A stretch of 64,000 bases of DNA from an uncultured Alphaproteobacteria bacterium (lineage in GTDB: Bacteria; Pseudomonadota; Alphaproteobacteria; Rs-D84). The notes below the pieces were generated by a model. The model saw only the letters and a list, made by a program, of their open reading frames with translations, did not search any database and was not told where the DNA came from. A program made the position numbers and the translations under genes. Below are positions 7,083 to 54,958 of this stretch, in pieces. Numbering within the stretch: the first letter of the stretch is position 1; each line of letters opens with the position of its first letter. The stretch is from assembly GCA_944389385.1 (NCBI GenBank), contig CALXMC010000003.1, positions 10,356-74,355 of the forward strand, in the 5' to 3' direction.

Positions 7083-8324
7083 TTATTTATGCGCGTACGC
7101 CAACACATACGGCACCAGTGCATCCGGTGCACCATTAAACCATTCACGCGGAATAATTAAACTGTTACGCTGGCCCGCGGACATTTTTGGCAAACATTCG
7201 CCGTTTGCTGCGTTTATAATGCGTTCCAGTTTTACCGATATATTCGCGTCGCTGTGCGGAATGATAAAGTTTATTGTATCGCCACACTTTATTTCATTAC
7301 GCAATTCCAGTGTGATTTTTTCCGCATCCGTTGCGGTCACAACACCTGCCGCGTGATATTGCGATACAGAACGCCCTGTTTCATAATTATGTGCATCCGG
7401 CCCGGCCGGCCCATCAAAAAACGCAGTTGTATATCCGCGTGTTTCCAGCCGTTCCAATTCGGCCATGTATGGCGCGGGGTCAAATGCCGCGGGATTGCGC
7501 GCATACGCATCCAATGCGGCACGGTACGCATGCACAACCGCACCAACGTAATATTCGCTGCGATTGCGGCCTTCTATCTTTAATGAATCAGGGCGGGATT
7601 CAATAACCTCGCGCAGGCGCGGCATCAAACACAAATCGCGCGCGTTCATAATGTATGCACCACGGTCATCTTCTTCGATTGGCATTTCGATGCCCGATTC
7701 ATGTTCGCGCAAAATCACATCGTATTTCCACCGGCATAATTGCGCACATGCGCCACGATTGGCGGGTCGGCCCGTGATAAAATTCGATAACAAACAACGG
7801 CCCGAATAAGACATGCACATCGCGCCATGGACAAAGATTTCCAGACCAACGTCTGGGCATTTTTCACGAATCTGTCGAAATTCAGGGTGCGAAACCTCGC
7901 GCGCCAAAACACACAAACGCGCGCCGGCAGCCTGCCAAAATTTAACGGACGCGGCCGAACATATATTCGCCTGGGTCGATATGTGTATTGGCATATATGG
8001 AAAATTTTCGCGCACCCACATCATAACGCCTGGGTCGGATATAATCAGCGCATCGGGGTTCAGGTACTTAATCATGTCCGCCACGCGTGGCATATTTTCA
8101 AAATCACGCTCGTGCGCAAATAAATTAAACGCCAAATATACTTTGCGCCCCGCGGCGTGTGCCAGTTCGATGCCGGCGCGAACCTGGTCCGCGGTGATTT
8201 TTGCACGCGCCCGCATGGAAAACCCCGGCAATCCCGCATAAATTGCATCTGCACCATATAAAATGGCGGTTTTGAACGCGTCCAGCGTACCCGCCGGCGC
8301 CAATAATTCAGGTAATTTTGTCAT
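7083..8324 (-). CDS. Peptidase U32 family protein (collagenase-like; YhbU/RlhA-type)
   Basis: 413 aa starting MTKLPELLAPAGTLDAFKTAILYGADAIYAGLPGFSMRARA, then ..ISTQANI..FVHGAMCMSYSGRCLLS, characteristic of the U32 family. Confidence 0.75.
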   Translation of the reverse strand: MTKLPELLAPAGTLDAFKTAILYGADAIYAGLPGFSMRARAKITADQVRAGIELAHAAGRKVYLAFNLFAHERDFENMPRVADMIKYLNPDALIISDPGVMMWVRENFPYMPIHISTQANICSAASVKFWQAAGARLCVLAREVSHPEFRQIREKCPDVGLEIFVHGAMCMSYSGRCLLSNFITGRPANRGACAQLCRWKYDVILREHESGIEMPIEEDDRGAYIMNARDLCLMPRLREVIESRPDSLKIEGRNRSEYYVGAVVHAYRAALDAYARNPAAFDPAPYMAELERLETRGYTTAFFDGPAGPDAHNYETGRSVSQYHAAGVVTATDAEKITLELRNEIKCGDTINFIIPHSDANISVKLERIINAANGECLPKMSAGQRNSLIIPREWFNGAPDALVPYVLAYAHK

Positions 8325-8382
8325 AGTATTTATATTTTCCGCACAAAATTATACTTTGCAAGCAAATTATGAATTTTTTGGC

Positions 8383-8411
8383 TTGAAATTCATACGCGCA
8401 CCATGTATAGT
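8383..8411 (+). promoter_or_regulatory. Sigma70-like promoter for tRNA-Thr
   Basis: TTGAAA, 17-nt spacer, TATAGT, ending about 12 nt before the mature tRNA 5' end. Confidence 0.4.
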
Positions 8412-8422
8412 GTATGCACGTT

Positions 8423-8498
8423 GCCGGATTAGCTCAGCTGGTAGAGCGGCTGATTTGTAATCAGTAGGTCGTTGGTTCAAGTCCGACATCCGGCACCA
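8423..8498 (+). tRNA. tRNA-Thr (anticodon TGT)
   Basis: GCCGGATTAGCTCAGCTGGTAGAGC..anticodon loop TTTGTAA..GGTTCAAGTCCGACATCCGGCACCA. Cloverleaf with encoded CCA. Confidence 0.9.
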
Positions 8499-8502
8499 GA
8501 TT

Positions 8503-8530
8503 AACCCCGCATCCCGCGGGATTTTTTGTT
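8503..8530 (+). terminator. Rho-independent terminator after tRNA-Thr
   Basis: Hairpin CCCGCATCCCGCGGG followed by ATTTTTTGTTTT. Confidence 0.45.
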
Positions 8531-8538
8531 TTAAGATT

Positions 8539-10911
8539 CTATTTCCGTAAAAATCCGTATTCATATATTTTAGGTTCGATTTCGGTCGCCAGTTCGCGCA
8601 TCGCAGCGGTTAATTCAGATTCCAGACGATTGAATTCGGCATCATCAGATTTGTTATTCATTTTGCCGTTATCTTTACGGCCTTTGAAAAATTCCTTGAT
8701 ATCATACAGCGATGCATTTGGGTTCGCACCACGGGTATGATAATACCGCCATATTTCCAACCCTGCATTATACACCCCCAGCGCAGCAGGTGATAATGAT
8801 TCCGGTATATGGCGACCAGCCAAAAATTGTGACATAAAATTACTGTCGAACGAAGACGCGCAACCAACCATATCCTCGGTAAATGGAATCCAGTGATTTA
8901 CACCATCATTACTGCTGATACGATTTTGGGTATGGAACAGTGTATAAATCAAACAATTATTCTTAAATTCGTCATCGGATTCGTATAAAAATTCCTGGCG
9001 CGCTTCCAATAAATTATCGGTATCATTTACGGGACGTGATACAGGATACAAAAACTGATCACGGTCATTTAACCAAGTTGCCGGAATAGCATGACGAACA
9101 GCAAAATATATCGCCGCATTTATAACATTTGATTCTGATACGGTTGTTTCATGATGTCCCCGACCATTTGTTGATAAGAACACATAATTTTGGTTTTGAA
9201 AATCGTTTCCAACATAACCCATGACCGCAATTTTATTCTGTGAATTTCGCCATTCATTTTGCCAATCATTCAAAAAACGTGTTCCTGTATTATAAGCAAA
9301 GAACTTTTTACGGCCATTCATTTCGCCGTCATTTTCCAATACATTGCACGATATGTTTGTAATCGGTTGTTTATTGTCTAGATTCCACATTGTAAAGGCG
9401 ATTGGAAAATTGCCCTTTACATTATCAAATGTATTTGCACGAACAACAAATCCACCAATGTATTCCGCACGAAAAAACTCGCGAAATACCGTAAAATTCG
9501 GTGCTGACACTATTTTCAACTTTGAAAATAGTGTCAGCACCGAATGCGGAATTTGCAAATAAATGCGAGTAATAAACTGTGCAAAAACCTCCATGGCAGC
9601 CTTTCCAATCAACTCCATACTTTGATTATGAAATTTTGTTGCCGCTACACCGCTACGAATATTTCTATTTTTAGTATGAGTATCTCCTTCTGCGTACGGT
9701 GGATTGATATAAATTATCAATTTCTGTTGTTCTTCCGGATTCTGAATAATATCATACAAACGATCCGGCATTTTACCGCCATCACGTACGGGTTTAAAAT
9801 CATCATTCAAGAAATCAAACTGAAAAATCTGATTTTCAAACAAATTGCTGTTTTGCCGCATTATTTCAACATCTGGTTCCATCAGGGTGCTGGCAAATAT
9901 ATTACGTCTTTCCTGGGGCAGACCAACCAACATATTCCCCGTACCCGCCGCACAATCCCAAATATACATATCTTTAAAATTATCACCAAATGCGGTCGCC
10001 ATGTATTCTTGGGATTTTTCTACCCAAATTTGTGGTGTAAAAAATGCACCTGTTGTTTCACGAACTTTCTGTGGCACCAATAAATCGCGCCGTTCCTGGA
10101 TTATACGCCAATATTCCCGTTTGGGTGGGCGACGATATTTATTCCAAAATAAATTATGTTTATCTGGATTGATAATTGCATAATCTTTTGTAAATAATTC
10201 TCCGTTAATTTTGACATTTGATTTATACCCGTTGCCACTGCGCAAAATTTTTAATTTATCCAGTTCTGGGATGGATTCGTTATCTTCTGATAATAAATCC
10301 GCCAAATAAAAATCACCCGGTGTTATGCCGACTTTTTTATTATAATCGCTGTTTATGTCGCGAATGTTTCCCCCCAGTTCTTTTTGCCATTTCATAAACA
10401 CAGACACAAAATTATTGGCGTTTATCTTTTTTTGTAAAATTTGTCCCCGTAAACCGCGCCCAGCAATAATTTTAGACAATGCAGATTTTAATTCACGCGC
10501 ATCCGTTTCATATTGATATAAAGATACTTTGCCTTCGGCAAATTTACGTACCAAATCGACAGTTCTTATATCTACGGCACTGGGCGTTTGTAACCAATTC
10601 ATATCACTGGCTGTACTTAACGCTTGGTACAATGGATCAAATTCTATAAAACCGCATTTAACATTATCAAATCCGCCGATGTATTCCGGAAAATCTATTT
10701 TGTCAGAATCGCGGTGAATCGTTAATATTAATTGCGCCAACATACGATAAATATCGGTTTCTTCATGTTTGGCCTCGAAATAAATATACGGCAGTGATAA
10801 ATCAATAGCACCCAAACCGACATTTCCCAAATTAAAATAGTTTTGGAAAATATCTTTGACTTCTTCTTCGCGCCGTGCGGCACGCATTTGCTGAACCAAT
10901 GTGATTGCCAT
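8539..10911 (-). CDS. Single-chain Type IIG (MmeI-like) restriction endonuclease / N6-adenine DNA methyltransferase
   Basis: 790 aa. Start ATG at 10909-10911 with RBS AAGGGGAGA. N-terminal PD-(D/E)xK-like D..EAK (AIDLSLPYIYFEAK). Gamma-class MTase motifs in order: X (TGAFFTPQ), I (WDCAAGTGNMLVG), IV (IYINPPYA), plus about 300 aa of C-terminal target-recognition-like region. GC is markedly lower than flanking DNA (roughly 37% versus 46-48%). Confidence 0.6.
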   Translation of the reverse strand: MAITLVQQMRAARREEEVKDIFQNYFNLGNVGLGAIDLSLPYIYFEAKHEETDIYRMLAQLILTIHRDSDKIDFPEYIGGFDNVKCGFIEFDPLYQALSTASDMNWLQTPSAVDIRTVDLVRKFAEGKVSLYQYETDARELKSALSKIIAGRGLRGQILQKKINANNFVSVFMKWQKELGGNIRDINSDYNKKVGITPGDFYLADLLSEDNESIPELDKLKILRSGNGYKSNVKINGELFTKDYAIINPDKHNLFWNKYRRPPKREYWRIIQERRDLLVPQKVRETTGAFFTPQIWVEKSQEYMATAFGDNFKDMYIWDCAAGTGNMLVGLPQERRNIFASTLMEPDVEIMRQNSNLFENQIFQFDFLNDDFKPVRDGGKMPDRLYDIIQNPEEQQKLIIYINPPYAEGDTHTKNRNIRSGVAATKFHNQSMELIGKAAMEVFAQFITRIYLQIPHSVLTLFSKLKIVSAPNFTVFREFFRAEYIGGFVVRANTFDNVKGNFPIAFTMWNLDNKQPITNISCNVLENDGEMNGRKKFFAYNTGTRFLNDWQNEWRNSQNKIAVMGYVGNDFQNQNYVFLSTNGRGHHETTVSESNVINAAIYFAVRHAIPATWLNDRDQFLYPVSRPVNDTDNLLEARQEFLYESDDEFKNNCLIYTLFHTQNRISSNDGVNHWIPFTEDMVGCASSFDSNFMSQFLAGRHIPESLSPAALGVYNAGLEIWRYYHTRGANPNASLYDIKEFFKGRKDNGKMNNKSDDAEFNRLESELTAAMRELATEIEPKIYEYGFLRK

Positions 10912-11274
10912 TCTCCCCTTCTCCCATAACACAAAAACCGTCAAAGGGAATTGACGGTCGGGGAGTTGGTAAATCAATATATTAGTGATTCTGTTGCTTT
11001 CGGGTTACCCCTGTTATATGACAACAGCCCCCCGACATTAGTGCCAGGGATGATAACGGTGCAAAAAAGACACCGAAAACATCAGATTTAACGATGCTTT
11101 TGCACCGAATATATTGGGCTTACCACAGCCCGAGCCCGCAGGTCCCCCGTTGGGTTCAGTACAATTATATCACTTTTTTAGGTGCAAAACAAACCGCCGA
11201 TAAAATATTTATAAATTTTTCCCAACCAATTGGTAAAAATTGGTTGGGATTACGTGGCATTTAACGATAATTTT

Positions 11275-11787
11275 TTATTTTTTCCGCTTTTGGGTTTTGG
11301 ATTTTTTTGGTTGCGGATTTTCGTTTTCGTCATCATCCATTTCGTATTCATCGTATTCCACATCCCAATTGCCGTATTCGCCGGCGGTTATTTCATTCAG
11401 CATACGGCGCGCGCGGGGATTATGGGATGAATATTTCTTTAATCCGATAACCAATGCAGCCGTTATCATTTTTTCCATATCTGCACTGGATACCGATCTG
11501 GCCACGCGGTCACGAATGCCGCCCGCCATGTGTTTGACTGCATGTTTGGCTTTGTACAGCAATGAATGCCGACGGCGGACGCTTTCCACCAATTCCATAA
11601 TCCACATCGCAACCAGCAAAACCAACAACGGAATCGCCACGCACCAAACAAAGTACTTTAATACCGAATCCGCACAGAACGACATGCCAAACATTGCGTT
11701 GCAAGTATTCGGACAATGCAGCAATAATATCGCCACGATTTCATATAATGATAAAATTGTTAATGCAATTTTTGACTTCAAAAACAT
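11275..11787 (-). CDS. Hypothetical membrane protein with acidic/basic C-terminal tail
   Basis: 170 aa. RBS AGGAG. Two predicted transmembrane segments. C-terminus DDDENENPQPKKSKTQKRKK. Confidence 0.4.
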   Translation of the reverse strand: MFLKSKIALTILSLYEIVAILLLHCPNTCNAMFGMSFCADSVLKYFVWCVAIPLLVLLVAMWIMELVESVRRRHSLLYKAKHAVKHMAGGIRDRVARSVSSADMEKMITAALVIGLKKYSSHNPRARRMLNEITAGEYGNWDVEYDEYEMDDDENENPQPKKSKTQKRKK

Positions 11788-11816
11788 TTTTTACTCCTGT
11801 GATTTTTTATGAATTG

Positions 11817-12560
11817 TTAAAAGTTTATAAATCTGATGCCCATCATCACCATCCAATCATTACGATGCCAATTGCCGCCCAGACGATGGCCCGCACGAAT
11901 CCACGCGCCCGTTGTTTTGTTCAACATGGTTCCCAATTCGAATTCAGCGGAAAATTCTTGGTGGCCTGTTTCGTAATTTACCCAAACCTGGGGATCGGCC
12001 ATAAACCACCAGCCTTTGTTTGACGCATACCCCAATAATACGCGATATTGGCCTTGGTTTATGTCGGGCGCGATGTCTGGGTCGGTGTTATGCAATGATA
12101 TGAACTGCTTGGCGACCAAAGCGCCAAACACGTTGTGACCAAACGAATAAACGTATCCCAAAATTGGGTCGAATGTAAATTGCTGGGCACCCAGGGTATC
12201 TTCGGTTGCGGTCGGCAATAAAAACTCGGCCGCACCAATCAAAGTATGACGGCCCCATGTATGCTGGGCGCGGCCACGCACAGTCATATCACCAATGCCG
12301 TTGTCGGAACGACCGCGGCCACTGTAACGCAAAATTGGTAATTCTGCGTTAATGCCGAACACGCGCTTTATCGCATGGTCGTATTTGAATGTTAATGAAG
12401 TAATAGAAGAATCGCCAAACGCACGCAGTTGTGGCAAAAATTCCAACTTGGTTAAATTATCGGCTGGATTTACGCCACGCGCAGCATCCGAATCTTCGGC
12501 CGCCCAAACGTTTGGCGCAATCAACGCGACTGTTAAAATGGTAAGTAGTGTTTTTTTCAT
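11817..12560 (-). CDS. Outer membrane beta-barrel protein (unknown transporter-like family)
   Basis: Signal peptide MKKTLLTILTVALIAPNVWA. C-terminal ..MGIRFINF. Confidence 0.55.
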   Translation of the reverse strand: MKKTLLTILTVALIAPNVWAAEDSDAARGVNPADNLTKLEFLPQLRAFGDSSITSLTFKYDHAIKRVFGINAELPILRYSGRGRSDNGIGDMTVRGRAQHTWGRHTLIGAAEFLLPTATEDTLGAQQFTFDPILGYVYSFGHNVFGALVAKQFISLHNTDPDIAPDINQGQYRVLLGYASNKGWWFMADPQVWVNYETGHQEFSAEFELGTMLNKTTGAWIRAGHRLGGNWHRNDWMVMMGIRFINF

Positions 12561-14237: not shown

Positions 14238-15623
14238 TTAATGTCTGTCATAAATTACAGGCGTTTTGTTTATCGTATAAATACGATTATCTGTATCGCG
14301 ATTATACCAAACGTACAGAATATTTACTGTATCATTGCCATCGTACGGGTTGCTGTATCCAACCGCCTGACGTGCAACGTTTTGCGGAAACACCGTACGA
14401 AAAGTGTTATCAAACACCCGTGAATATTTGTCGCGGAAAGATTGACTGGCGATAACGTTGAATACCAATATCCCATCCGGCGCAATATGATTTTTTACAC
14501 GCTGCATAAATTCCGCAGTGATGAAACCTTCTGGGATTTGAAAAGAATTAGAATACAAATCAACCAATATCAAATCGTATTTTTTATCATTATTTTTCAA
14601 ATACTGACTTGCATCTTGGACAACAAATTTCTTGTTATCTGTTAATTTGTGATCCAGAAAATATTTTTCACTGATTTTCTTTAACGACGGTTCTATGTCA
14701 ACAAAGGTGTAATTATTTATATAATCATGTATGCCCGCCGTAAATCCACCCGCACCCAGTACCAATATTTCACGCGTACGATCGGCCGGCATATTATAAA
14801 TAAAACTATTATTAAAATAATTCATATATTCCCCAACCAGGCCACTTTTGGGGTTATAAATAGACATCGGCAATCCGTTCATATTTAATATGCGCGTATC
14901 GTCCGGCCATTGACTGACCGCGATGGTTGAATTTGCATTATTAACCAATATTCCAAAATAACCGCGTTGAACATAATCGCTGTTAACCAATACTGTTGGA
15001 ATTAAGATTAACGCACCCGATAACATAACCCACCATTTGGGACGCATCACAATCGCAGCAAATAACGCCAATACAACAATTAACATAACTGTGTAATTCA
15101 CACCAACAAACGGCATCAGTACCAATGTTGTTAATAACGAACCCAATACCGACCCAATCGTATCCCACGCCATGATGTTGCCTGTGTAATTAGTGTTATA
15201 TCTGTGCAGGCACCGCGACAATAATGTCGTATTAAACCCAAACAAAAATGGCCCAATCGACAAAAATATAAACGAAAATAAAAACGTTTGAATAATGCCG
15301 GACATAATCCCCCAAGAATACATCCGCACAAAATATTCCATAACCAATGGGAAACTGGACGCCAAAAACGCAAACAGTGATATAACGATAAAACTGCACG
15401 ACAAAATATTTTTGATATGCTTGGTTTTAATACGTTCTGATTCACCCAAGAAATATCCCAGTGACATAAATCCCAAAAATGTCCCCATGATAATACTGGT
15501 GATAACCGCACTGGAACCGACCCAGAACGACAGTTGGCGCAGAACAACCAATTCAAACGATAAACTTACATACCCATTCAAAAATATTAAAAATATTAAC
15601 CAAAAACGTAATTTCCCAGACAT
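14238..15623 (-). CDS. Fused polytopic membrane domain / spermidine synthase-like (polyamine aminopropyltransferase family) protein
   Basis: N-terminal roughly 200 aa with multiple TM helices. C-terminal region ILVLGAGGFTAG..VDIEP..DLILVDLYSN matches the spermidine synthase Rossmann fold. Confidence 0.6.
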   Translation of the reverse strand: MSGKLRFWLIFLIFLNGYVSLSFELVVLRQLSFWVGSSAVITSIIMGTFLGFMSLGYFLGESERIKTKHIKNILSCSFIVISLFAFLASSFPLVMEYFVRMYSWGIMSGIIQTFLFSFIFLSIGPFLFGFNTTLLSRCLHRYNTNYTGNIMAWDTIGSVLGSLLTTLVLMPFVGVNYTVMLIVVLALFAAIVMRPKWWVMLSGALILIPTVLVNSDYVQRGYFGILVNNANSTIAVSQWPDDTRILNMNGLPMSIYNPKSGLVGEYMNYFNNSFIYNMPADRTREILVLGAGGFTAGIHDYINNYTFVDIEPSLKKISEKYFLDHKLTDNKKFVVQDASQYLKNNDKKYDLILVDLYSNSFQIPEGFITAEFMQRVKNHIAPDGILVFNVIASQSFRDKYSRVFDNTFRTVFPQNVARQAVGYSNPYDGNDTVNILYVWYNRDTDNRIYTINKTPVIYDRH

Positions 15624-54713: not shown

Positions 54714-54787
54714 TGGCAGGGGCAGAAGGAATCGAACCCTCATCCGCGGTTTTGGAGACCGATATTCTACCGTTGAACTATGCCCCT
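54714..54787 (-). tRNA. tRNA-Trp (anticodon CCA)
   Basis: Reverse complement AGGGGCATAGTTCAACGGTAGAATATCGGTCTCCAAAACCGCGGATGAGGGTTCGATTCCTTCTGCCCCTGCCA. Canonical position upstream of secE. Confidence 0.9.
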
Positions 54788-54901: not shown

Positions 54902-54958
54902 GCAAGCAAAAAATAGTAACCAGTAACGAGTTACAAGTAACTATTTTTTGCTTGCGCA
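54902..54958. repeat. 57-bp palindrome: 15-bp AT-rich stem enclosing four GTAAC/GTTAC pentamers
   Basis: GCAAGCAAAAAATAG-TAACCAGTAACGAGTTACAAGTAAC-TATTTTTTGCTTGC. Lies in the divergent region between tRNA-Trp and virB8. Confidence 0.7.

What the first reader, a model, noticed from the sequence alone, without database searches (positions are those of the whole stretch)
8423..10977. Low-GC MmeI-like Type IIG restriction-modification gene inserted directly 3' of tRNA-Thr
A single 790-aa ORF combines a PD-(D/E)xK-like N-terminus (D-x11-EAK), gamma-class N6-adenine MTase motifs (FFTP, DCAAGTG, NPPY) and a long C-terminal putative target-recognition region. This is the single-polypeptide Type IIG/IIL architecture. 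It lies 40 nt from the 3' end of tRNA-Thr. Its GC (roughly 37%) is about 10 points below its neighbours, consistent with horizontal acquisition into a tRNA-associated hotspot. No integrase or second repeat is visible. Related fused MTase architectures also occur in BREX (PglX) and other defence systems, but no partner genes are adjacent here.
Basis: partly seen in the sequence, partly recalled or inferred. Interest (0 to 1): 0.55.

Follow-up and report, generated by a model that had tools for sequence, protein, structure and literature searches.

The report
Mobile one-gene restriction-modification enzyme, uncatalogued family
A recently acquired 2.7-kb cassette next to tRNA-Thr carries one gene for what is most likely a single-chain DNA-cutting and DNA-methylating defence enzyme of a very large family that no database recognises, with swappable specificity segments and an unexplained, evolutionarily maintained perfect 50-bp DNA palindrome inside the coding sequence.

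Summary
There is a 790-aa ORF (8539..10911, minus strand) ending 40 nt from tRNA-Thr(TGT), it has the lowest GC in the window, and it has GAFFTP / DCAAGTGN / NPPY motifs plus an N-terminal D-x8-E-A-K.

The predicted whole-protein fold best matches single-chain Type IIG/IIL/ISP restriction-modification enzymes (BpuSI, DrdV, LlaBIII, MmeI). By sequence the protein is not an MmeI-family member and matches no Pfam, NCBIfam, PADLOC or PDB entry above threshold. It belongs to an uncurated family of about 2,500 clusters at 50% identity, found in at least 560 species across many phyla and always annotated 'hypothetical'. The nuclease fold could not be confirmed; that call rests on nearly invariant motif residues.

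Horizontal acquisition is well supported. A ~98%-identical relative has an empty site, and a diverged relative (flanks 79% and 91% identical) carries the same 2,740-bp cassette at 99.85% identity with identical junctions. The tRNA is a neighbour, not an integration target.

Two new points. Two short segments (V1, V2) are swapped as a coupled pair between otherwise near-identical alleles, as specificity cassettes would be. Between them lies a perfect 24+24-nt palindrome, kept in about a quarter of family copies by compensatory changes, with a centre that flips AG/CT (Lys/Thr).

The parts
8533..11272 (.). Inserted cassette of 2,740 bp (the gene plus 361 bp upstream). It replaces a 52-bp spacer found in the empty site of a close relative.
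   Evidence: Homology between the window and L085 runs 11900..11273 and 8532..8200 at 97.6-98.2%, with 52 bp in L085 in place of the insert. In L006 the insert is 99.85% identical while the flanks are 79% and 91% identical, and the left step falls exactly at 11272/11273. Junctions are identical in the window, L006, L089 and L003. Its GC of 38.5% is the lowest in the window.
8539..10911 (-). ORF of 790 aa plus stop codon: the single-chain restriction-modification-like protein.
   Evidence: AlphaFold2 model with pLDDT 86.2. Best PDB fold matches are Type IIG/IIL/ISP enzymes.
10462..10911 (-). N-terminal module (aa 1-150), a putative PD-(D/E)xK nuclease. Conserved residues: E15, K19, D37, E46-x-K48, Q60.
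   Evidence: These residues are conserved in 157-175 of 176 homologues (K19 in 157, the other five in 170-175). The secondary-structure order fits the canonical core: helix, strands around 33-47, helix 54-67, strand 77-81. The fold search of the isolated domain is not significant against PDB (best: DrdV, E=0.2). It does match the N-terminus of a 739-aa phage 'N-6 DNA methylase' (E=1.5e-4).
10063..10461 (-). Connector region (aa 151-283) with mixed helices and a small beta-sheet. Conserved motifs: DFYLAD and RPP.
   Evidence: Naturally truncated paralogues begin at aa 257-298, just after this region.
9382..10062 (-). Gamma-class N6-adenine DNA methyltransferase core (aa 284-510). Motif X GAFFTP is at 10033-10050, motif I DCAAGTGN at 9934-9957, motif IV NPPY at 9694-9705.
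   Evidence: The motifs are invariant or nearly so. There are weak N6_Mtase and MTase_II HMM hits. Fold matches include M.BseCI, CamA, PacII and HsdM.
9592..9690 (-). V1 hypervariable cassette (aa 408-440), directly after NPPY-A-E. Low model confidence at aa 407-422.
   Evidence: Nucleotide identity falls to 42-50% against L003 and L089, on a backbone that is 93-100% identical.
9496..9545 (.). Perfect palindrome: two 24-nt arms with a 2-nt centre (AG on the coding strand, which gives the AAG codon of Lys464). It encodes aa 456-472 and sits between V1 and V2.
   Evidence: DNA hairpin free energy -26.2 kcal/mol, z = -10.9. It is the only perfect long inverted repeat in the 64 kb. It is conserved in register in about 23 of 91 family copies. 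14 of 25 pairs show compensatory changes. It exceeds a synonymous-recoding null.
9112..9291 (-). V2 hypervariable cassette (aa 541-600), which co-varies with V1.
   Evidence: V1 type 0 pairs with V2 type 5 in 27 of 32 sequences; type 11 with type 3 in 6 of 6.
8542..9111 (-). Conserved C-terminal region (aa 601-790). Function is not assigned; it is probably the scaffold of the recognition domain.
   Evidence: Conservation profile. High pLDDT. Full-length alignments to DrdV and MmeI span about 790-810 columns.
10912..11272 (-). Non-coding 5' part of the cassette. It holds the Shine-Dalgarno sequence, a terminator-like hairpin at 10936-10959 just upstream of the start codon, and a replacement terminator hairpin (about 11221-11248) for the upstream 170-aa gene.
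   Evidence: It is 87-100% identical (60-nt windows) in L003 and 100% identical in L006.
8423..8498 (+). tRNA-Thr(TGT), followed by its terminator hairpin at 8506-8520. It is a neighbour of the insert, not part of it.
   Evidence: The tRNA is present and intact in both occupied and empty relatives.

Best explanation
What it is. Window 8533..11272 is a horizontally acquired, self-contained one-gene cassette. Its 790-aa product is most likely a single-chain restriction-modification enzyme of the Type IIG/IIL kind.

Domain layout:
- An N-terminal PD-(D/E)xK-type nuclease module (E15, D37, E46-x-K48).
- A connector.
- A gamma-class N6-adenine DNA methyltransferase (GAFFTP, DCAAGTGN, NPPY).
- A C-terminal recognition scaffold.

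Inferred mechanism. The enzyme binds a short asymmetric DNA motif. With AdoMet it methylates an adenine in that motif on host DNA. On unmethylated incoming DNA it cuts at a distance through the N-terminal nuclease.

Specificity (inferred). Two short cassettes appear to set the motif: V1 (aa 408-440, the loop after NPPY) and V2 (aa 541-600). They are exchanged together between alleles.

Family and mobility. The protein belongs to a very large, uncurated family unrelated in sequence to the MmeI, Eco57I or BpuSI families. The cassette sits in a variable intergenic spacer next to tRNA-Thr. It arrived there by a precise replacement of 52 bp, not by tRNA-directed integration.

What is shown: the ORF, the motifs, the fold similarity, the lack of partner genes, the mobility and the cassette swapping.
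What is inferred: nuclease activity, DNA methylation, the role of V1/V2 in specificity and the defence function.
For: Fold. The full-length model (pLDDT 86.2) has Type IIG BpuSI (E=5e-10), DrdV, Type ISP LlaBIII, Type IIL MmeI and BsaXI as top PDB matches, with alignments of 540-810 columns. Gamma-class adenine MTases follow.

Motifs. The MTase motifs and the putative nuclease residues are conserved to a similar degree: E15, D37, E46, K48 and Q60 in 170-175 of 176 sequences (K19 in 157), N403, P404, P405 and Y406 in 172-176 of 176.

Separable N-terminus. In five loci a truncated paralogue (MTase plus C-terminus only) begins at aa 257-298 next to a full-length copy. In L073 and L074 that copy shares V1/V2 at 88-100% identity with its partner, as a companion methylase of the same specificity would.

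No partner gene. Across about 80 loci no neighbour is conserved. The gene is solitary cargo on 10-kb plasmids. Some copies lie beside GmrSD, Hachiman, Gabija or Septu-type genes and recombinases.

Cassette swapping. Alleles at this same locus (window, L003, L089) are 93-100% identical in nucleotide sequence except in V1 and V2, which fall to 42-59%. V1 and V2 types are coupled across 176 sequences.

Mobility. An empty site exists in L085, L086 and L088. The insert is 99.85% identical in L006 while the flanks are 79% and 91% identical. Junctions are identical in all occupied genomes. GC and GC3 are the lowest in the window.

Other. One JGI record independently labels a homologue as a nuclease of the restriction-endonuclease-like superfamily.
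Against: No curated model of any RM family reaches threshold. N6_Mtase scores E=0.059 against this protein, and there are no MmeI_*, Eco57I or PADLOC Type IIG hits.

A family profile finds no solved structure by sequence.

The isolated N-terminal model has no significant PDB fold match (best E=0.2), so the nuclease fold is unproven.

Whole-protein TM-scores are low (0.24-0.30), so the similarity concerns domain order and domain folds rather than a rigid superposition.

The C-terminal half is unusually conserved for a recognition domain.

Most neighbours are housekeeping genes rather than defence genes.

No methylome or activity data exist.
Confidence: 0.62

Rival explanations
1. It is a solitary (orphan) DNA adenine methyltransferase. 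On this view the N-terminal 280 aa is a non-catalytic or non-nuclease accessory domain, for example for DNA binding or regulation. The gene would then act in epigenetic regulation, as an anti-restriction methylase, or as a plasmid or phage self-protection methylase, and not as a restriction enzyme.
For: Only the MTase part has any HMM support, and that support is weak. The N-terminal fold is not confirmed as a nuclease. The best match for the N-terminal domain is the N-terminus of a phage-encoded 'N-6 DNA methylase'. Most genomic neighbours are housekeeping genes. Forms without the N-terminus exist on their own reading frames.
Against: E15, D37, E46-x-K48 and Q60 are conserved in 170-175 of 176 sequences, as strongly as NPPY. 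That degree of conservation is hard to explain for a non-catalytic domain. The domain order and the whole-chain fold hits are to restriction-modification fusions, which rank ahead of the plain methylases. Rapid cassette exchange between alleles and the presence/absence polymorphism are typical of restriction systems.
Confidence: 0.2
2. It is a single-protein defence or addiction module that uses the methyltransferase-like domain as a DNA-sequence or modification sensor and not for host protection. It would be a modification-dependent or otherwise non-classical nuclease with no self-methylation.
For: The family is invisible to RM models. The C-terminal half is unusually conserved. Some copies sit in defence islands.
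Against: All AdoMet-binding and catalytic MTase motifs are intact and nearly invariant. In L073 and L074 the copy lacking the N-terminus shares V1/V2 with its full-length partner, which fits a real protective methylase.
Confidence: 0.08
3. It is the methyltransferase component (PglX-like or similar) of a multi-gene system such as BREX or DISARM, with partner genes lying nearby.
For: It is a large fused adenine MTase with NPPY, and PglX-type proteins are of similar size.
Against: The empty-site comparison shows that only this one gene was inserted. The flanking genes are a U32 peptidase, tRNA-Thr, a 170-aa membrane protein, a 247-aa protein and CvpA, conserved in relatives that lack the gene. 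No PglX or BREX model is hit in PADLOC. No partner is conserved across about 80 loci.
Confidence: 0.02
4. It is a methyltransferase acting on RNA or protein (NPPY also occurs in PrmC/HemK and some rRNA methylases) and is unrelated to DNA defence.
For: There are weak sequence hits to PrmC (E=0.034) and to METTL6.
Against: Those hits are far below threshold. The GAFFTP motif X, the X-I-IV motif order and all significant fold matches point to DNA adenine methylases and RM enzymes. Mobility, allelic cassette exchange and carriage on plasmids do not fit a housekeeping RNA or protein methylase.
Confidence: 0.04

Closest known systems
BpuSI and DrdV (Type IIG single-chain restriction-modification enzymes; PDB 3s1s, 7lo5)
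   Same: These are the best whole-chain fold matches (E=5e-10). They share the domain order: an N-terminal PD-(D/E)xK nuclease, a connector, a gamma-class N6-adenine MTase and a C-terminal recognition region. They are also solitary genes.
   Different: No sequence similarity is detectable, even with a family profile. The protein is shorter (790 aa against 870-1,015). TM-scores are only 0.24-0.29. The isolated N-terminal domain does not match theirs significantly (E=0.2-0.9). The C-terminal half is conserved rather than variable.
MmeI family (Type IIL; PDB 5hr4; Pfam MmeI_N, MmeI_hel, MmeI_Mtase, MmeI_TRD and MmeI_C, names recalled from memory)
   Same: The architecture is the same, and a D-x(n)-E-x-K motif lies near the N-terminus. 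As in the MmeI family (established knowledge), a conserved recognition scaffold carries a few positions that determine specificity. Fold match E=3e-7.
   Different: None of 40 family members hits any MmeI_* model at E<=1. The protein is not a family member by sequence. The cleavage distance and one-strand methylation typical of MmeI are unknown here.
Eco57I-type organisation (a bifunctional RM protein plus a separate companion methylase)
   Same: In some loci (L062, L066, L071, L073, L074) a full-length copy is accompanied by an adjacent MTase-only paralogue that starts at aa 257-298 (L066 also has a second full-length copy). In L073 and L074 this paralogue carries the same V1/V2.
   Different: The window's gene has no companion. 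Only 1 of 40 members shows even a weak Eco57I Pfam hit (E=0.013). Here the companion is a truncated paralogue of the RM gene itself.
Recognition-domain replacement and movement in Type I S and Type IIG genes (Furuta et al. 2011, PMC3077401)
   Same: Alleles at one locus share a near-identical backbone but carry unrelated recognition segments. Recombination at conserved flanking sequence is inferred (for the paper).
   Different: Here two short, non-adjacent cassettes (33 and 60 aa) inside a single RM polypeptide are exchanged together. A conserved palindrome lies between them, and no palindrome or inverted repeat is mentioned in that paper.
Quasipalindrome template switching, and structure-initiated gene conversion such as the G4 element at Neisseria pilE (both from established knowledge, not tested here)
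   Same: Arms kept perfectly complementary by concerted change, together with a flipped centre, are what strand-switching at an inverted repeat produces. A DNA secondary structure next to variable cassettes recalls structure-initiated gene conversion.
   Different: No such element has, to my knowledge, been described inside a restriction-modification gene. A functional link to cassette exchange is hypothetical.

Membership tests
MmeI family (Type IIL) | Sequence membership in the Pfam MmeI_N / MmeI_hel / MmeI_Mtase / MmeI_TRD / MmeI_C models | tested here: not met
   No MmeI_* model is hit at E<=1, either for this protein or for any of 40 family members.
MmeI family (Type IIL) | Cleavage about 20/18 nt from an asymmetric site, with methylation of one strand only | not testable with these tools
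   This needs enzyme assays or a methylome.
Type IIG restriction-modification enzymes (general) | A gamma-class N6-adenine (or N4-cytosine) MTase domain with an AdoMet-binding motif I and a catalytic (N/D)PP(Y/F) motif in the same chain | tested here: met
   GAFFTP, DCAAGTGN and NPPY occur in X-I-IV order and are invariant or nearly so in 176 sequences. DNA adenine methylases are fold matches. HMM support is only sub-threshold.
Type IIG restriction-modification enzymes (general) | An endonuclease domain (usually PD-(D/E)xK) fused in the same polypeptide | tested here: inconclusive
   The D37-x8-E46-x-K48 motif, together with E15 and Q60, is conserved in 170-175 of 176 sequences, and the secondary-structure order is compatible. 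The fold search of the isolated N-terminal model is not significant against PDB.
Type IIG restriction-modification enzymes (general) | Overall fold and domain order like solved Type IIG/IIL enzymes | tested here: met
   BpuSI, DrdV, MmeI and BsaXI, plus Type ISP LlaBIII, are the top PDB matches, with 540-810 aligned columns, E from 5e-10 to 1e-6 and probability 1.00. TM-scores are low at 0.24-0.30.
Type IIG restriction-modification enzymes (general) | Self-sufficient, with no obligatory partner gene | tested here: met
   The insert contains one gene. No neighbour is conserved across about 80 loci. The gene is solitary on small plasmids.
Type IIG restriction-modification enzymes (general) | Demonstrated site-specific cleavage and methylation | not testable with these tools
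   No experimental data are available.
BREX PglX / multi-gene MTase-containing defence systems | Neighbouring pglZ, brxC, brxL or other system genes, and a match to PglX models | tested here: not met
   Neighbours are housekeeping genes that are conserved in relatives lacking the gene. No PglX or BREX model is hit in PADLOC.
tRNA-targeted integrative island | An integrase gene and a direct repeat of the tRNA 3' end at the far border | tested here: not met
   There is no integrase in the insert. The junctions show only AAAA microhomology, and the tRNA and its terminator lie outside the insert. Only 1 of 60 other family loci has a tRNA within 500 bp.
Orphan DNA adenine methyltransferase | An MTase without an associated nuclease function | tested here: inconclusive
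   A 280-aa N-terminal extension with a conserved D...ExK motif argues against this. Its nuclease fold is unconfirmed.

The most novel reading that the evidence does not exclude
The conserved intragenic palindrome is a functional DNA element. On this reading it forms a hairpin or cruciform, or acts as a strand-switch site, between the two specificity cassettes. That would provoke breaks or template switching and so drive coupled V1/V2 exchange, which changes specificity in this uncatalogued family of single-chain restriction-modification enzymes. The AG/CT (Lys/Thr) flip of the centre would be a visible trace of that activity. This would be a built-in way of generating diversity in a restriction-modification gene, different from invertase shufflons and from simple-repeat phase variation.
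Probability: 0.15. Interest if true: 0.8.

Novelty: new variant of a known kind. Interest (0 to 1): 0.6.

Why it matters
A family of about 2,500 clusters at 50% identity, present in at least 560 bacterial species across many phyla, is currently annotated only as 'hypothetical protein'. Pfam, NCBIfam and PADLOC do not recognise it. If these proteins are active Type IIG-like enzymes, then restriction-modification and defence-system censuses undercount them, especially in Bacteroidota and gut Alphaproteobacteria. The family would also add a new, compact (790 aa) scaffold whose specificity appears to be carried by two short exchangeable cassettes, which makes it attractive for engineering.

The locus is also an unusually clean natural example of a one-gene defence cassette moving between diverged genomes with identical junctions and no recombinase.

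The intragenic palindrome is kept perfect by compensatory changes at the cost of amino-acid changes, and its centre flips. It is a rare case of a DNA-level constraint visibly overriding a coding sequence, and it makes a possible link between DNA secondary structure and specificity switching directly testable.

Tried and rejected
1. MmeI-family membership. Rejected: there are no MmeI_* hits in 40 members.

2. PglX/BREX or any other multi-gene system. Rejected on the empty-site comparison, the neighbourhood statistics and the PADLOC results.

3. tRNA-directed integration. Rejected: there is no integrase and no tRNA-derived repeat, the insert lies beyond the tRNA terminator, and only 1 of 60 family loci is near a tRNA.

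4. Confirming the nuclease by fold. The isolated N-terminal model gave no significant PDB hit. The viral library returned only a phage methylase N-terminus and an unnamed protein.

5. Sequence or profile search against PDB. Nothing significant. The Rab hits are noise.

6. Rfam on the whole window. Only three tRNAs; nothing in the 361-bp leader of the cassette.

7. Truncated tandem copies as silent donor cassettes. Not supported as such: they are intact ORFs with their own starts. They are either identical in V1/V2 to their partner (L073, L074) or part of mixed arrays. The window has no second copy.

8. The palindrome arms as the enzyme's own recognition site. Rejected: the window, L003 and L089 have identical arms but different V1/V2.

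9. The palindrome as an assembly artefact or a chance event. Rejected: it is in frame, it is present in independent assemblies from several phyla, it shows compensatory changes, and it exceeds the synonymous-recoding null.

10. The palindrome as an RNA hairpin. Disfavoured: there are almost no G-U pairs, and the centre occurs as a reverse-complement pair, AG or CT.

11. A single crossover at the palindrome as the swapping route. Disfavoured, because V1 and V2 lie on opposite sides of it yet remain coupled.

12. I first assumed that L006 was the window itself. It is a diverged relative.


Full report
1. THE OBSERVATION

The ORF runs 8539..10977 on the minus strand (812 aa from a TTG); from the ATG at 10911 it is 790 aa. 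Homologues begin at the same MAITL sequence and a GGAG-rich ribosome-binding site precedes the ATG, so 10911 is the likely start. tRNA-Thr(TGT) lies at 8423..8498 on the plus strand. It converges on the ORF, with 40 nt between the tRNA 3' end and the stop codon. A G+C-rich terminator hairpin (8506-8520) occupies that gap.

The motifs GAFFTP (aa 288-293), DCAAGTGN (319-326) and NPPY (403-406) are present. The N-terminal motif is D37-x8-E46-A-K48, not D-x11-EAK.

The GC content is truly deviant. The ORF is 38.0% and the inserted segment 38.5%, against 45.1 +/- 1.5% (minimum 40.0%) for all other 2,740-bp windows of the 64 kb. GC3 is 33.4% against 45.9 +/- 3.5% for the other long ORFs.

2. WHAT THE PROTEIN IS

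No curated library recognises it. In Pfam the only hit is N6_Mtase at E=0.059, below the gathering threshold. NCBIfam and PADLOC give only noise-level methyltransferase hits, and phmmer against PDB sequences finds nothing. The same holds for the family as a whole: of 40 diverse members, none hits an MmeI_* model or a PADLOC Type IIG or PglX model, 7 hit N6_Mtase weakly, and 1 hits Eco57I at E=0.013. A family profile finds no solved structure by sequence.

The family is nevertheless very large. The word-indexed search saturated at 8,000 hits, all about 800 aa, all 'hypothetical' and all without Pfam domains. An exhaustive profile search found 2,487 clusters at 50% identity with E<=1e-3, of which 964 have E<=1e-30. 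At least 560 GTDB species genomes encode a relative. Bacteroidota dominate, with Planctomycetota, Spirochaetota, Alpha-, Beta- and Gammaproteobacteria, Cloacimonadota and Chloroflexota also represented. No record in the 50,697-genome phage collection encodes it. It is solitary cargo on about 10-kb plasmids of Fluviibacter and Acinetobacter. The closest named relative (76% identity) is from Candidatus Enterousia, a gut alphaproteobacterium.

An AlphaFold2 model built on a 40-sequence alignment is confident (mean pLDDT 86.2). Its best PDB matches are the single-chain restriction-modification enzymes BpuSI (Type IIG, E=5e-10), DrdV (Type IIG), LlaBIII (Type ISP), MmeI (Type IIL, E=3e-7) and BsaXI, with alignments of 540-810 columns. 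Gamma-class adenine methylases follow: M.BseCI, CamA, PacII and HsdM. TM-scores are low (0.24-0.30), as expected for flexible multi-domain chains. The match therefore concerns domain folds and their order, not a rigid superposition.

The methyltransferase assignment is solid. The motif order is X-I-IV, and D319, G323, N403 and P405 are invariant and P404 and Y406 nearly so in 176 sequences.

The nuclease assignment is not proven. The isolated N-terminal model (aa 1-282, pLDDT 90.6) gives no significant PDB match. The best are DrdV at E=0.21 and BpuSI at 0.89, with an HsdR and an archaeal Holliday-junction resolvase further down the list.

Four things favour a nuclease:
- E15, D37, E46, K48 and Q60 are conserved in 170-175 of 176 sequences, as strongly as the methylase catalytic residues.
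- The secondary-structure order fits the PD-(D/E)xK core.
- The domain is separable in nature. In five loci an adjacent paralogue begins at aa 257-298 and lacks the N-terminus. In L073 and L074 that truncated copy has V1/V2 cassettes 88-100% identical to its full-length partner, as a companion methylase of the same specificity would.
- A JGI annotation of one homologue reads 'nuclease of restriction endonuclease-like superfamily'.

The N-terminal domain also matches the N-terminus of a 739-aa phage 'N-6 DNA methylase' (E=1.5e-4). That shows the fusion is recurrent but does not settle its chemistry.

3. NO PARTNER GENES

I called ORFs around the family gene in about 80 loci and clustered them. 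No neighbour is conserved. The commonest 'neighbour', in 8 loci, is the family itself in tandem. The 128 immediate neighbours are heterogeneous and mostly housekeeping. A minority are defence genes: GajA, PtuA/AriA-type ATPases, SIR2 and HamA. A 72%-identical relative sits in an integrative island between GmrSD, a tyrosine recombinase and a resolvase on one side and Hachiman (HamA/HamB) on the other. Other close relatives lie next to an AAA_21+DUF4435 gene, a Fic gene or a large serine recombinase. The gene is thus a self-contained, mobile, single-gene unit. PglX/BREX is excluded.

4. HOW IT GOT HERE

Relatives of the flanking U32 peptidase gene supplied the comparison.

In L085 the flanks are 97.6-98.2% identical in nucleotide sequence, and the 170-aa gene and tRNA-Thr are separated by a 52-bp spacer. 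In the window those 52 bp are replaced by 2,740 bp, at 8533..11272. L086 and L088 are also empty. L087 has a resolvase and a glycosyltransferase inserted in the same spacer, so this spacer is a variable spot.

L006 is the GTDB representative of a different species. There the same 2,740 bp are 99.85% identical to the window, while the left and right flanks are 79% and 91% identical. On the left the identity steps from 0.65 to 1.00 exactly at 11272/11273. Junction sequences are identical in the window, L006, L089 and L003.

The cassette brings its own terminator for the upstream gene and 361 bp of leader. It has no recombinase and no target duplication beyond AAAA, and it leaves the tRNA and its terminator untouched. 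Only 1 of 60 other family loci has a tRNA within 500 bp. How the cassette moves is not shown. The options are homologous exchange between genomes that already carry it, or a precise but unknown insertion process.

5. SPECIFICITY CASSETTES

The C-terminal half is conserved, unlike a typical variable recognition domain. Variability is concentrated in V1 (aa 408-440, directly after NPPY-A-E, with low model confidence) and V2 (aa 541-600).

Across 176 full-length sequences the two segments are decoupled from the backbone and coupled to each other. Relatives with 90-96% backbone identity share only 17-36% identity in V1/V2. A relative at 74% backbone identity shares 50-65%. V1 type 0 pairs with V2 type 5 in 27 of 32 sequences, and type 11 with type 3 in 6 of 6.

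At the tRNA-Thr locus itself three alleles (window, L003, L089) are 93-100% identical in nucleotide sequence along the gene and its leader, except for two blocks at aa ~400-450 and ~545-605 that fall to 42-59%. Tandem arrays in other genomes have backbones up to 95% identical and unrelated cassettes across aa 408-600.

This is the pattern known for recognition-domain replacement in Type I S and Type IIG genes (PMC3077401). It is the best indirect evidence that the protein reads DNA sequence and is under diversifying selection. That V1/V2 set the recognised motif is an inference.

6. AN UNEXPECTED ELEMENT: THE INTRAGENIC PALINDROME

Between V1 and V2, at 9496-9545, lies a perfect inverted repeat with 24-nt arms and a 2-nt centre. 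On the coding strand it reads ATTCGGTGCTGACACTATTTTCAA-AG-TTGAAAATAGTGTCAGCACCGAAT, and it encodes aa 456-472. As single-stranded DNA it folds at -26.2 kcal/mol (z = -10.9). It is the only perfect long inverted repeat in the window.

It is not an artefact. About 23 of 91 family copies, from independent assemblies and several phyla, have uninterrupted arms of 13-25 nt in the same codon register, around a common core TTTTCAA-NN-TTGAAAA that encodes F-S-K/T-L-K. Arms differ between lineages but stay complementary. In a 25-sequence alignment, 14 of 25 pairs show changes on both sides, and 52 cells carry double-sided changes against 19.8 +/- 3.6 in shuffles (0 of 500 shuffles reach the observed value) and at most 22 in slid controls. 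That set was chosen for pairing, so the percentage paired is circular. The double-sided changes are not.

Recoding each peptide with synonymous codons gives 9.3 +/- 2.9 complementary pairs of 24, with a maximum of 19 in 27,300 trials. Nineteen real copies have 19 or more pairs, and 21 copies have z>3. The complementarity forces amino-acid co-variation on the two sides, for example LAEF...KILQ against LTLF...KIVS.

G-U pairs are almost absent. The centre of palindromic copies is AG (11) or its reverse complement CT (11), with AA in 2 and CC in 1. Non-palindromic copies use mostly AA and CA. At the protein level residue 464 is dimorphic across the family, Thr in 92 and Lys in 79 of 176 sequences. 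The window and L003 have identical arms but opposite centres.

These features point to a DNA-level, strand-symmetric process in which the centre flips. That is what strand-switching at an inverted repeat produces (established knowledge on quasipalindromes; not tested here). An RNA hairpin is a poorer fit.

The role of the palindrome is unexplained. The candidates are:
- A self-perpetuating by-product of template switching at a sequence that began as the naturally palindromic F-S-K-L-K codons.
- A hairpin or cruciform that provokes breaks or strand switches and so promotes the coupled conversion of the flanking V1 and V2 cassettes.
- An RNA-level control element, for example an RNase III site.

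The arms do not track V1/V2 type, so they are not the enzyme's own target. A single crossover at the palindrome is unlikely to be the exchange route, because V1 and V2 lie on opposite sides of it and stay coupled.

7. VERDICT

The finding is real, and the reading 'horizontally acquired single-chain RM gene' is the best explanation (confidence about 0.6 for an active Type IIG-like enzyme, and about 0.9 for a mobile DNA adenine-methylase-containing gene). It is not an MmeI-family member. It represents a very large uncurated family with the architecture of Type IIG/IIL enzymes. The nuclease function, the recognised motif and the cleavage geometry remain to be shown.

Three things raise the interest above a routine RM annotation: the size and invisibility of the family, the clean evidence for cassette mobility and for coupled exchange of the two specificity segments, and the conserved, covarying palindrome with a flipping centre inside the coding sequence.

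Noticed in passing
L087:4777-6799 (the same spacer as window 8533-11272): In a relative whose flanking peptidase is 85% identical, the spacer between the 170-aa gene and tRNA-Thr holds a different insert, a serine resolvase plus a group-1 glycosyltransferase. This intergenic spot is therefore a recurrent insertion site for unrelated cargo.
   Followed up: partly
L036:4858-12511; L066:5706-12271; L067, L062, L071, L073, L074, L047: The family occurs in tandem arrays. L036 has three full-length copies. Several loci pair a full-length copy with a paralogue that lacks the N-terminal ~275 aa. Backbones within an array are up to 95% identical while the aa 408-600 cassette is unrelated. The exception is L073/L074, where the truncated copy has the same cassettes as its partner. 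L073 (Hyphomicrobiales) and L074 (Ca. Kapaibacterium) carry almost the same pair, which implies transfer between phyla.
   Followed up: partly
window 10936-10959 (minus strand) and 11098-11189: A terminator-like hairpin (GACCGTCAATTCCCTTTGACGGTT followed by TTTGTG) lies only ~25 nt upstream of the start codon, inside the cassette's 361-bp leader. A second imperfect inverted repeat lies further upstream. The leader is 87-100% identical (60-nt windows) in L003 and 100% identical in L006, has no Rfam match and contains no convincing small ORF. It may be a regulatory leader.
   Followed up: partly
window 54902-54955: This is the only other long hairpin-type inverted repeat in the window: 26-nt arms, 88% complementary, 2-nt centre. 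It lies in the intergenic region next to tRNA-Trp (54714-54787). It is probably a terminator or operator.
   Followed up: no
window 14241-15623 (minus strand): This is a second low-GC patch (37.5% GC). The gene is the conserved spermidine-synthase-like gene present in all relatives (Pfam Spermine_synth in L003 and L085), and its GC3 is near normal at 40.8%. Low GC alone does not indicate foreign DNA in this genome.
   Followed up: partly
NZ_KM583817.1:3207-5968 (Helicobacter pylori plasmid, hit H1): A 39%-identical homologue on an 18.6-kb H. pylori plasmid is split into three reading-frame pieces and is unannotated. It is probably a frameshifted, and possibly phase-variable, copy of the family.
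   Followed up: no
L090:420-2816 against window 9486-9555: L090 is a relative in a different genomic context, with a backbone only ~80% identical in nucleotide sequence. Its 50-bp palindrome is identical to the window's, and the ~90 bp around it are 97% identical. The palindrome region is thus more conserved than the rest of the gene.
   Followed up: partly
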